A stretch of DNA of 13,225 nt, from contig JAVHOV010000022.1 of assembly GCA_036170245.1 (NCBI GenBank), positions 1 through 13,225 on the forward strand. The letters are read 5' to 3'. The position numbers were made by a program, and so were the translations under genes. The DNA is from an archaeon (GTDB lineage Archaea > Iainarchaeota > Iainarchaeia > Iainarchaeales > JAAZKV01). The notes below the pieces were generated by a model. That model was given only the letters and a program-made list of their open reading frames with translations, made no database searches and was not told the origin of the DNA. Below are positions 8,566-10,778 of the stretch, one piece after another (the first letter of the stretch is position 1; every line of letters starts with the position of its first letter).

Positions 8566-9681
8566 ATGAAATTTTACAACTACGCCTTGGTCGACCAAAA
8601 AATATGCCAACTTGCAGCAACAATAGAAACTAATGTTCTTAGTTATACAAATCCGCTCAACCTGGATCAGGAAAAAGAAAAGTTCTTTAATGCATTAAAT
8701 AAAAAAGAACAATATAATCCATCTTTTATTTACATTCCAAAAAACTCAATCTATTCTTATTATTCAAAAAATACAACTCTTGCCACATTCAAAAATGAAA
8801 TGAATGAAATATTCAAGGAAATAGGAACAGACTCACTCGGACTGATATTTGAAAGAAAATTGCTTGATTTATTTGACAGGATTGAATTAATCAAAAGTGT
8901 AGGAACAGAAAACTTCTCACAGAATTCGAAAGGATACTATGGAGAAATAACCCGAGAATCAAAAAAATATGCTAAAGAAATATTATCAAAAAAAATCAAT
9001 AACAACGAAAAAAACATCTTATTTTTGGAAGCAAAAAAGGAAATGGAAAACGCATTAAGCAAAAGAAAATTAAAATATAAAGTAATTGAAAAAATTACTC
9101 CCGGATCACAAGTCTCGGTTAATGTAAGAACAAAAGAAATAATGATTTCAAAACAGGTAATATTCTCAAAAAGCCAATTGGACCGATTAATTGCACATGA
9201 AATTGAAGGACACATTTACAGGTATGAAAACGGGTGCGCTCAACCATATAAAATATTCTCAAGAGGTTTAAGCAAGGAAACTCTAAAAACTGAAGAAGGA
9301 ATTGCAGTTTATATTGAACAACAAAAAGACATAAACATTGATGAACAGCTGAAACAATACGCAGGAAGACTAATTGCAGTAAACACTGCCCAAAAATATT
9401 CTTTTTATGAAACATTTGAAGAAATGAAAAAATATTTTTCTGAAGAAGAATCATTTAACTTAACTCTAAGAGCAAAGAGAGGAACACTTGATCAAAATAG
9501 AGGAGGAGCATTTTTCAAAGATATTCTCTACTTACAAGGATACAGGGAAATAGCAGATTTCGCAAAAGAAAGAGACTTGAATGAACTATACTATGGAAGA
9601 TACTCTATAAGTGATTGCCCTTTAGTTTTAGATATTGATGGATTAAAAAAACCAAAATTTCTTCCTTTGGTGAAAAAATGA
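8566..9681 (+). CDS. DUF1704 / MATCAP-like (tyrosine/phenylalanine carboxypeptidase domain) metallopeptidase, copy 1
   Basis: P-x-N-x-x-x-EK-x-x-FF...YNP-x-F-x-Y N-terminus, HEIEGH (9196-9213) followed by R-x-x-NG, TEEGIA, RAKRG, FFKDILYLQG and LYYGR. A TATA-like TTAATAAA (8536-8543) lies upstream. Confidence 0.88.
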   Translation: MKFYNYALVDQKICQLAATIETNVLSYTNPLNLDQEKEKFFNALNKKEQYNPSFIYIPKNSIYSYYSKNTTLATFKNEMNEIFKEIGTDSLGLIFERKLLDLFDRIELIKSVGTENFSQNSKGYYGEITRESKKYAKEILSKKINNNEKNILFLEAKKEMENALSKRKLKYKVIEKITPGSQVSVNVRTKEIMISKQVIFSKSQLDRLIAHEIEGHIYRYENGCAQPYKIFSRGLSKETLKTEEGIAVYIEQQKDINIDEQLKQYAGRLIAVNTAQKYSFYETFEEMKKYFSEEESFNLTLRAKRGTLDQNRGGAFFKDILYLQGYREIADFAKERDLNELYYGRYSISDCPLVLDIDGLKKPKFLPLVKK

Positions 9682-10778
9682 ATTTCGAAAATAATATTGA
9701 TTCAGAAATATACAAAATAGCTAAACTAGTTGAAAAAGATTTCTTAAATTCAGTGAATCCAACAAATATAACAAGTGAGAAGCTGAACTTTTTTTCAAAC
9801 TTGAAAAAATATTCTCAATACACCCCTTGTTTTGAATATAACCTAAAAAAAGATTACTCTTCTGAAATTGAATTACTTAAAAAATTAAAGAAAGAACTTC
9901 AAAGAGGCCTATCTAGCAAATTGTTTTTGAATAGAATTGAACTAATTGAAAATGAATTAAATCTTATTGAAAAAATAAATACCCCTAAATTCTGCAATGC
10001 ATCAAAAACACAATATGGATTACCCTCAAAAAAAGAAGTGAAACTAGCCGAGGAAATACTTTTAGAAAAAACAAAATCTGAAGAAAAGCCCTTATGTGCA
10101 ATAGACATACAAAAAGAACTTTCAAAAAAACTAAATAAAATAGGATTCCAAGTTACAATAGAAGAGAATATGTCAGCAAGAGCGTCCGTGCATTTAATTG
10201 AAAAAAAATTAAAGATAAATAAAAATGCAACATTCGAAAAAAATTCTGCCAAAAGATTATTTGTTCATGAAGTTGAGACACACATTTATAGATACCTAAA
10301 TGGAGAAAATCAGCCCTTAAAAATATTCTCTTTAGGATATGGAAAAGATTTTTTGCAGACTGAAGAAGGACTTGCTTTATTTAATCAAAAAAACTCAAAA
10401 ATTTCAAGCAAGGAACAAGAAAAAAAATTTGCAAGGGGAGCTTATGCAGTTAATTATGCATTAAAACATGATTTTTTTGACACATTTGATGAAATGACAA
10501 AATACTTTCCAAAAGATGAGGCATATGAAATTACACAACGAGTGAAAAGGGGAGTTGTTCAAACCCAAAAAGGATCCTTTACAAAAGACCACTGTTATTT
10601 TACAGGCCTTCTTAAAGTAACTGATTATGCACAAAGAGGCGAACAAATACAAGATTTATACTATGGCAAAATAAGCCTTGAGGAAATAAAAATTGCAAAA
10701 AAAATAAACGGACTTGCCAAGCCAACATATTTACCAAAGTACTTAATCAAAAAAACCTTGAACCAGAACAAATTATAA
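9678..10778 (+). CDS. DUF1704 / MATCAP-like metallopeptidase, copy 2
   Basis: NPTN...EKLNFF...YTPCFEY, HEVETH (10266-10283) followed by RYLNG, TEEGLA, RVKRG, FTKDHCYFTG and LYYGK. ATGA overlap with the copy 1 stop. Confidence 0.88.
   Translation: MNFENNIDSEIYKIAKLVEKDFLNSVNPTNITSEKLNFFSNLKKYSQYTPCFEYNLKKDYSSEIELLKKLKKELQRGLSSKLFLNRIELIENELNLIEKINTPKFCNASKTQYGLPSKKEVKLAEEILLEKTKSEEKPLCAIDIQKELSKKLNKIGFQVTIEENMSARASVHLIEKKLKINKNATFEKNSAKRLFVHEVETHIYRYLNGENQPLKIFSLGYGKDFLQTEEGLALFNQKNSKISSKEQEKKFARGAYAVNYALKHDFFDTFDEMTKYFPKDEAYEITQRVKRGVVQTQKGSFTKDHCYFTGLLKVTDYAQRGEQIQDLYYGKISLEEIKIAKKINGLAKPTYLPKYLIKKTLNQNKL

What the first reader, a model, noticed from the sequence alone, without database searches (positions are those of the whole stretch)
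8566..10778. Tandem, both-intact MATCAP/DUF1704 carboxypeptidases directly downstream of a RimK ligase
Seen: two collinear, diverged paralogs coupled by an ATGA overlap. Both keep HExxxH, TEEG(I/L)A, R-x-KRG and F-x-KD-x-x-Y, but they differ next to the active site (HEIEGH/FFKDILY versus HEVETH/FTKDHCY), and copy 1 has a Tyr-rich insertion (SIYSYYSKNTT). Established: this motif set defines the family containing the tubulin tail carboxypeptidases, and prokaryotic members have largely unknown substrates. Inference: the retained duplicates have split specificity (for example Glu versus aromatic or Asp removal, or exo- versus endo-cleavage), and the context suggests deglutamylation as the prokaryotic function of the family.
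Basis: partly seen in the sequence, partly recalled or inferred. Interest (0 to 1): 0.7.

Follow-up and report, generated by a model that had tools for sequence, protein, structure and literature searches.

The report
Archaeal twin MATCAP glutamate-trimming peptidases
A tiny uncultured archaeon carries two intact, long-diverged relatives of the human tubulin-tail-trimming enzyme MATCAP beside a glutamate-type ligase and a RimB-like protease; they likely break down glutamate chains that the ligase builds, which would give this large prokaryotic enzyme family a testable job.

Summary
Confirmed: two intact PF08014 (MATCAP/DUF1704) genes, 34% identical, ATGA overlap, after an active RimK. The organism is an Iainarchaeota (DPANN) archaeon. 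Across 215 genomes, all 49 with MATCAP have RimK and 47 have the protease (9 of the other 166 do), which supports a glutamate add-and-trim role. The pair occurs in 8 genomes of one genus but is not a recent duplication (AU p=0.002). New here: copy 2 fills a slot held by an M29 aminopeptidase in 16 relatives, and none of the 8 pair genomes has that M29. Copy 1 is likely the core trimmer and copy 2 an accessory recycler of released short peptides. Substrate unidentified; no activity shown. This scan already noted RimK-MATCAP pairings in at least 13 other genomes; no paper was found with both terms.

The parts
8566..9681 (+). MAT1: core MATCAP/DUF1704 metallocarboxypeptidase (H211-E212-H216, E244, R302-x-K304-R305-G306, K318-D319, Y322), with the phylum-typical insert at about residues 57-70
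9678..10778 (+). MAT2: accessory MATCAP paralogue (H197-E198-H202, E230); no insert, faster evolving, more basic; occupies the slot held by an M29 aminopeptidase in relatives
7621..8517 (+). RimK-family ATP-grasp ligase with intact motifs (ORF called from GTG 7609; likely start is the ATG at 7621 overlapping the upstream TAA)
   Evidence: 22 of 22 orthologues keep ExN, GxAG, WRxN
6686..7621 (+). Degenerate RimK paralogue, a predicted pseudo-ligase (ORF called from TTG 6680)
   Evidence: 0 of 21 orthologues keep those motifs; beside RimK throughout the phylum
6110..6550 (-). RimB/RloA-like retropepsin aspartic protease (D29-T-G), divergent from the ligases
   Evidence: below curated RloA cut-offs; DTG in 26 of 26, all net basic
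5629..6186 (-). GNAT acetyltransferase, usually next to the protease; role unknown
4617..4856 (-). LysW-like zinc-ribbon protein with an acidic tail ending -DSD; candidate acceptor, but not required for the system
   Evidence: (below LysW cut-offs)

Best explanation
The two genes encode intact MATCAP-family zinc carboxypeptidases that likely form the trimming arm of an archaeal RimK/RimB-type system for making and breaking alpha-linked glutamate chains. Shown: the gene content, the intact catalytic motifs, the co-occurrence with RimK and the protease, the old split between the copies and the swap of copy 2 with an M29 aminopeptidase. Inferred steps: (1) RimK, probably assisted by its inactive paralogue, adds Glu to a C-terminus (protein tail or free polymer); (2) the RimB/RloA-like endopeptidase cuts long chains but, like its studied relatives, cannot act on runs under about 5-8 Glu; (3) MAT1, present across the family, removes the remaining residues one at a time; (4) MAT2, optional and interchangeable with an aminopeptidase, digests the released free oligo-Glu back to glutamate.
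For: Profile over 215 genomes: MATCAP 49; RimK in 49 of those 49 and 39 of the other 166; protease in 47 of 49 and 9 of 166; by family 7 of 7 vs 2 of 30. The link holds where the genes are not neighbours (family f22 and others). Fusions elsewhere: 8 of 12 long hits scanned join an ATP-grasp to MATCAP, one with a detectable retropepsin between (the 12 were picked by length from the 150 hits listed). Human TMCP1/2 and the Tetrahymena homologue shorten polyGlu (PMC10499314, passages and section 11). RimB needs 5-6 and RloA 8 contiguous Glu (PMC11957791 section 7; PMC12239564 section 8). Locus-type M29 in 18 of 38 family genomes and 0 of 8 MAT2 genomes; two well-supported MAT1 sister pairs differ as MAT2 vs M29. 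MAT2 is more basic than MAT1 in 8 of 8 genomes (one by a single charge). RimK loci without MATCAP carry M20, M29, FGase or C39 peptidases instead.
Against: No activity or substrate shown. No conserved acceptor found: the LysW-like protein is undetected in 14 of the 15 MATCAP genomes outside the family, and aIF5B tails are variable and also acidic without RimK. That this RimK uses glutamate rests on family likeness; it is below the S6-ligase equivalog cut-off (132 vs 331), and the fused ligases are of another ATP-grasp subfamily (PF14397). MAT2/M29 exclusion is not significant within the genus alone (p=0.25; family p=0.003; kin are not independent). 8 of 34 MATCAP genomes of the family have neither gene after MAT1. 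Human TMCP1 removes Tyr, Ala, Glu and Gly alike (PMC10499314), so homology does not fix Glu specificity.
Confidence: 0.45

Rival explanations
1. One reading: the copies split by residue (one removes Glu, the other Tyr/Asp/Ser) to edit an encoded acidic tail such as the LysW-like protein's -(Y)DSD end, as TMCP1 and TMCP2 do on tubulin.
For: Human paralogues differ in this way (PMC10499314 passages). Fixed differences exist between the clades: E221/L207, S236/G222, A303/V289, Y346/I332, and Y/H after KD in 24 of 26 MAT2. LysW-like tails are acidic with a near-terminal Tyr and sit directly upstream of MATCAP in G162.
Against: MAT1 occurs without MAT2 in 26 of 34 family genomes (2 of them on cut contigs) beside the same LysW-like gene. 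The LysW-like gene lies in an old CysS-Yip1-TyrRS gene order and is undetected in most non-family MATCAP genomes. An aminopeptidase could not stand in for a C-terminal tail editor.
Confidence: 0.15
2. The ligase makes a small peptide or conjugate other than poly-alpha-Glu (another amino acid, gamma-linked Glu, or a compatible solute), and the peptidases recycle it.
For: Neighbours in other families include extra ATP-grasps, GCS2 ligase, FGase, M20 and a membrane C39 peptidase; a third ATP-grasp sits next to MAT1 in 7 loci. In Photobacterium a QEGLA protein is up 27.5-fold, next to a gene annotated GshB up 38-fold, in the table that lists RimK up 52-fold at low salt (PMC10308900, passages).
Against: MATCAP tracks the RimB/RloA-like protease more tightly than RimK, and the studied members of that family need long Glu runs (PMC11957791, PMC12239564).
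Confidence: 0.17
3. MAT2 is a general scavenging peptidase that came to lie behind MAT1; the tandem arrangement has no pathway meaning, and MAT1 alone serves the RimK system.
For: MAT2 evolves faster (49% vs 64% mean identity, 28 of 28 genome pairs), is patchy (5 changes on the MAT1 tree) and is dispensable.
Against: It always sits directly after MAT1 (8 of 8), never co-occurs with the locus M29, and keeps every catalytic and basic motif.
Confidence: 0.13
4. A LysW-type carrier pathway: RimK loads an amino acid on the zinc-ribbon carrier, and MATCAP releases the product as LysK does.
For: Weak LysW hits (NF041070 E 3e-5); the carrier-like gene lies within a few kb of RimK in many genomes; a GNAT is nearby.
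Against: Below both LysW cut-offs; the terminal Glu is not conserved, most ends are D, N or S; no kinase, reductase or aminotransferase was recognised near the ligases in the loci examined (only part of the ORFs were annotated); the carrier is undetected in family f22 (0 of 13).
Confidence: 0.07

Closest known systems
Human MATCAP1/TMCP1 (KIAA0895L) and MATCAP2/TMCP2 (KIAA0895), Pfam PF08014
   Same: Family, fold (TM 0.55-0.63), HExxxH plus EEG zinc site, R-x-KRG and KD-x-x-Y motifs; two paralogues in one genome.
   Different: About 20% identity; no tubulin motif hit other than one FtsZ in this genome; linked to RimK and a RimB-like protease, not TTL/TTLL; phylum-specific insert in copy 1.
Pseudomonas RimK-RimB(-RimA) S6 polyglutamylation and poly-alpha-Glu system (PMC11957791)
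   Same: RimK-type ligase next to a basic retropepsin with an intact DTG.
   Different: Adds an inactive RimK paralogue and one or two carboxypeptidases; archaea have no bacterial S6 (recalled); no RimA recognised in the loci examined.
rloABC operon (PMC12239564)
   Same: Retropepsin that cuts polyGlu, with an ATP-grasp ligase.
   Different: RloA is secreted and paired with an inactive-transglutaminase membrane protein; here the ORF has no N-terminal extension before the protease domain, scores below the RloA cut-offs, and the ligase is RimK-type.
TIGR02421 QEGLA proteins (bacterial DUF1704)
   Same: Same Pfam family, matched over the whole length.
   Different: Below the equivalog cut-off (162 and 174 vs 339); TEEG(I/L)A instead of QEGLA.

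Membership tests
MATCAP/DUF1704 (PF08014) | Profile score above the gathering cut-off | tested here: met
   149.5 and 177.7 vs 27 bits
MATCAP/DUF1704 (PF08014) | HExxxH plus downstream EEG zinc ligand | tested here: met
   H211/E212/H216/E244 and H197/E198/H202/E230; conserved in 33 of 33 and 26 of 26
MATCAP/DUF1704 (PF08014) | MATCAP fold | tested here: met
   AF2 pLDDT 89 and 94; the five Foldseek hits at E<=0.001 are all MATCAP chains; high rmsd (10-13 A) suggests a domain shift
MATCAP/DUF1704 (PF08014) | Sequential C-terminal exopeptidase activity | not testable with these tools
   needs an assay
TIGR02421 QEGLA equivalog | Score above 338.65 bits | tested here: not met
   162.1 and 173.6
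RimK-RimB polyglutamylation system | RimK-family ligase with intact catalytic motifs | tested here: met
   TIGR00768 155.4 vs 143.4; motifs in 22 of 22
RimK-RimB polyglutamylation system | S6-glutamate ligase equivalog (PRK10446) | tested here: not met
   132.3 vs 331
RimK-RimB polyglutamylation system | Linked retropepsin with catalytic Asp and basic surface | tested here: met
   PF05618 31.9 vs 27; DTG 26 of 26, net charge +11 to +26
RimK-RimB polyglutamylation system | Identified Glu-terminated acceptor | tested here: inconclusive
   LysW-like protein and aIF5B examined, neither fits generally
LysW/LysX carrier pathway | Carrier above the LysW cut-off with invariant C-terminal Glu | tested here: not met
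   23.9 vs 75 bits; 3 of 24 aligned tails end in Glu
Recent tandem duplication | Copy 2 nested among copy-1 orthologues of the genus | tested here: not met
   separate clades, support 99-100; AU p=0.0023

The most novel reading that the evidence does not exclude
Prokaryotic DUF1704 proteins are the deglutamylases of RimK systems and the ancestral form of the tubulin-tail carboxypeptidases. Iainarchaeota run a complete glutamylation cycle with an active/inactive ligase pair, an endopeptidase and two specialised MATCAPs: one guided by a phylum-specific insert to a still unknown protein tail, the other recycling free oligo-Glu in place of an aminopeptidase.
Probability: 0.25. Interest if true: 0.8.

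Novelty: new variant of a known kind. Interest (0 to 1): 0.5.

Why it matters
The family is large (3,980 representatives at 50% identity matched the profile) and my searches found no paper tying its prokaryotic members to RimK. A locus with ligase, endopeptidase and two small, well-modelled carboxypeptidases makes that function directly testable in a tube, would show protein or polymer glutamylation in DPANN archaea, and bears on where the eraser side of the tubulin code came from. The tandem pair itself is the lesser novelty; its value is the natural swap with an aminopeptidase.

Tried and rejected
MAT1-MAT2 complex prediction: no verdict, score 0.00; no evidence either way. Sequencing runs: no RNA holder listed. 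Promoter/terminator scan at chance level. The search for related loci on genome contigs gave only 2 loci. aIF5B (ends EEEE here) as acceptor: tail variable in 38 loci and acidic also in genomes without RimK; inconclusive. uL15 and RadA acidic tails were noted and fetched but not followed; the ranking dropped the LysW-like ORF as a shadow of a longer overlapping frame. The downstream UDP-glucose dehydrogenase is not a conserved neighbour. Pocket-lining residues could not be mapped: models give no coordinates, and Landskron 2022, Bak 2024 and Iyer 2009 were not held, so prior mention of bacterial homologues or of this gene context there is unchecked. Whether MAT2 arose by an old duplication or by transfer from another Iainarchaeota lineage is unresolved (three-way fork). 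The careful tree did not finish; the quick tree was used. No supplements were read.

Full report
Observation. The two ORFs are at the stated coordinates, stop-free, and overlap by ATGA at 9678-9681. They are 34% identical, pass the PF08014 cut-off, fall below the TIGR02421 cut-off, match human MATCAP by sequence and by predicted fold. They are the only two family members found in this 86% complete genome. Source names of close homologues place it in Iainarchaeota.

The locus is larger than reported. Upstream lie an active RimK, a second RimK-like gene and, divergently, a RimB/RloA-like aspartic protease, a GNAT, a membrane protein, a LysW-like zinc ribbon and CysS. All 22 aligned RimK orthologues keep three catalytic-type motifs that 0 of 21 paralogues keep; all 26 proteases keep DTG and are basic (the motif choice is from my own knowledge of ATP-grasp enzymes). 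This order is kept through the family.

Co-occurrence. Of 215 phylum genomes, 49 have MATCAP, 56 the protease and 88 a RimK match at E<=1e-20. All 49 have RimK and 47 the protease; the two misses are a cut contig and a 55% complete genome. Of the other 166, 39 have RimK and 9 the protease. By family, 7 of 7 with MATCAP have the protease against 2 of 30 without. Kin are not independent and most genomes are incomplete, so the p-values overstate. In family f22 and four single-genome families MATCAP lies away from RimK, yet both partners are in the genome. Where MATCAP is missing, the RimK pair often has M20, M29, FGase, GCS2 or membrane C39 genes beside it (20 loci chosen by me). Among 150 listed hits of a wider search, 8 of 12 long proteins scanned are ATP-grasp-MATCAP fusions, one with a detectable retropepsin; their ligase is of a different subfamily.

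History of the pair. Adjacent pairs occur in 8 genomes, all in one genus of 22; one other genome has two copy-1-type genes on separate contigs. Four of the 7 other pairs also overlap by 4 nt when ORFs are called from the first start. Copy 1 groups with all single copies of the family (33 rows), copy 2 forms its own clade (26 rows: 8 from genomes, 18), and both join the other Iainarchaeota copies in an unresolved fork. A duplication in the genus ancestor is rejected (AU p=0.0023; 30 rows, LG+G4, quick search), as is one within this genome. The split is at least as old as the family, or copy 2 came from another lineage.

The Tyr-rich segment is present in 33 of 33 copy-1 proteins and 14 of 15 other Iainarchaeota copies, in 0 of 26 copy-2 proteins, and its columns are gaps in 97-99% of 119 more distant homologues. 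It marks the phylum's normal enzyme; it is poorly modelled (residues 60-70, pLDDT under 50). FFKDILY occurs in 1 of 33 and HEIEGH in 13 of 33 copy-1 proteins. Fixed differences do exist (E221/L207, S236/G222, A303/V289, Y346/I332; Y or H after KD in 24 of 26 copy-2 rows by pattern), and at several copy 2 has the family-wide state. Copy 2 evolves faster (49% vs 64%) and is more basic in 8 of 8 genomes. I could not map these sites to the pocket.

The slot after copy 1. Of 34 family genomes with MATCAP, copy 1 is followed by copy 2 in 8, by an M29-family aminopeptidase in 16 (11 directly, 5 with an extra ATP-grasp between), by neither in 8, and 2 contigs end there (3 of the M29s were scanned, 1 above and 2 just below the Pfam cut-off). 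The locus-type M29 is in 18 of 38 family genomes and 0 of 8 pair genomes; 5 of those 8 hold only distant M29 matches. Exclusion gives p=0.003 in the family but p=0.25 in the genus. On the copy-1 tree the state changes 7 times; G018/G009 and G020/G015 are supported sisters with copy 2 versus M29, and one origin of the pair-bearing copy 1 is weakly rejected (p=0.034; G156 was labelled M29 from its genome, and G004, G013, G014 and G158 were left out).

Mechanism. RimB cuts only runs of 5-6 or more Glu and stimulates free poly-alpha-Glu synthesis by RimK (PMC11957791: abstract, passages, sections 7 and 14); RloA needs 8 (PMC12239564: abstract, sections 8 and 12). Such cutting leaves stubs and short peptides. 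Human TMCP1/2 and Tetrahymena TMCP remove Glu one at a time (PMC10499314: passages, section 11). An aminopeptidase cannot trim a protein's C-terminal tail but can digest free peptides, so a gene that swaps with it most simply acts on free peptides. Hence copy 1 as core trimmer and copy 2 as accessory recycler. This is inference; I put the full model at 0.45 and deglutamylation of some kind at about 0.65. A side hint: a Photobacterium QEGLA protein rises 27.5-fold in the table where RimK rises 52-fold at low salt (PMC10308900: passages).

Substrate. The LysW-like protein has a tubulin-like acidic tail, lies near RimK in many genomes and directly before MATCAP in G162. But it is found in 99 genomes, most without MATCAP, and undetected in 14 of 15 MATCAP genomes outside the family. 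aIF5B tails were inconclusive. The acceptor is unknown and may be a free polymer.

Prior knowledge. No held paper has both DUF1704 and RimK; searches (listings only) showed none on prokaryotic function. Three key papers were not held. PMC13269789 and PMC3495828 were seen as passages; the latter states the general idea of peptidases reversing ATP-grasp tags. This scan already noted RimK-MATCAP pairings in at least 13 genomes, which led me to PMC12239564; none matched the M29/tandem terms.

Verdict. A real, conserved, uncharacterised variant of the RimK/RimB system with MATCAP-type exopeptidases. Interest 0.5.

Noticed in passing
window 6686-8517; L095-L114: An active RimK paired with a catalytically degenerate paralogue is conserved across many Iainarchaeota families, with or without MATCAP; a possible ligase/pseudo-ligase pair.
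   Followed up: partly
window 4617-4856 (-): LysW-like zinc-ribbon protein with an acidic, often Tyr-containing tail in 99 of 215 phylum genomes; terminal Glu not conserved; function unknown.
   Followed up: partly
L096:13367-14890, L097:11093-12646: Membrane protein fused to a C39-like peptidase directly upstream of the RimK pair in 7 loci lacking MATCAP, with further ATP-grasp, M20, FGase and GCS2 genes.
   Followed up: partly
L047:4481-5494, L079, L081, L082, L084, L085, L090: A third ATP-grasp (weak GSH-S, RimK and TTL hits) next to MAT1 in 7 loci of the family.
   Followed up: partly
P0121, P0131, P0133, P0180, P0186, P0192: 774-837 aa fusions of a PF14397 ATP-grasp and MATCAP, one with a detectable retropepsin between them.
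   Followed up: partly
window 12334-12777 (-): Stand-alone EF-Tu domain 2-like protein (weak Pbp11 hit) conserved downstream of the locus through the family, beside tRNA-Leu(CAA) at 12146-12231 here.
   Followed up: no
window 3803-4537 (-): 244-aa basic ORF with no family hit and no blast match in the relatives' loci, in a variable slot between the LysW-like gene and CysS.
   Followed up: no
G000:C2:31319-31843 (-): Ribosomal protein uL15-like ORF (named from recall of its motif) with a long acidic C-terminal extension, the most acidic tail in the genome scan.
   Followed up: no
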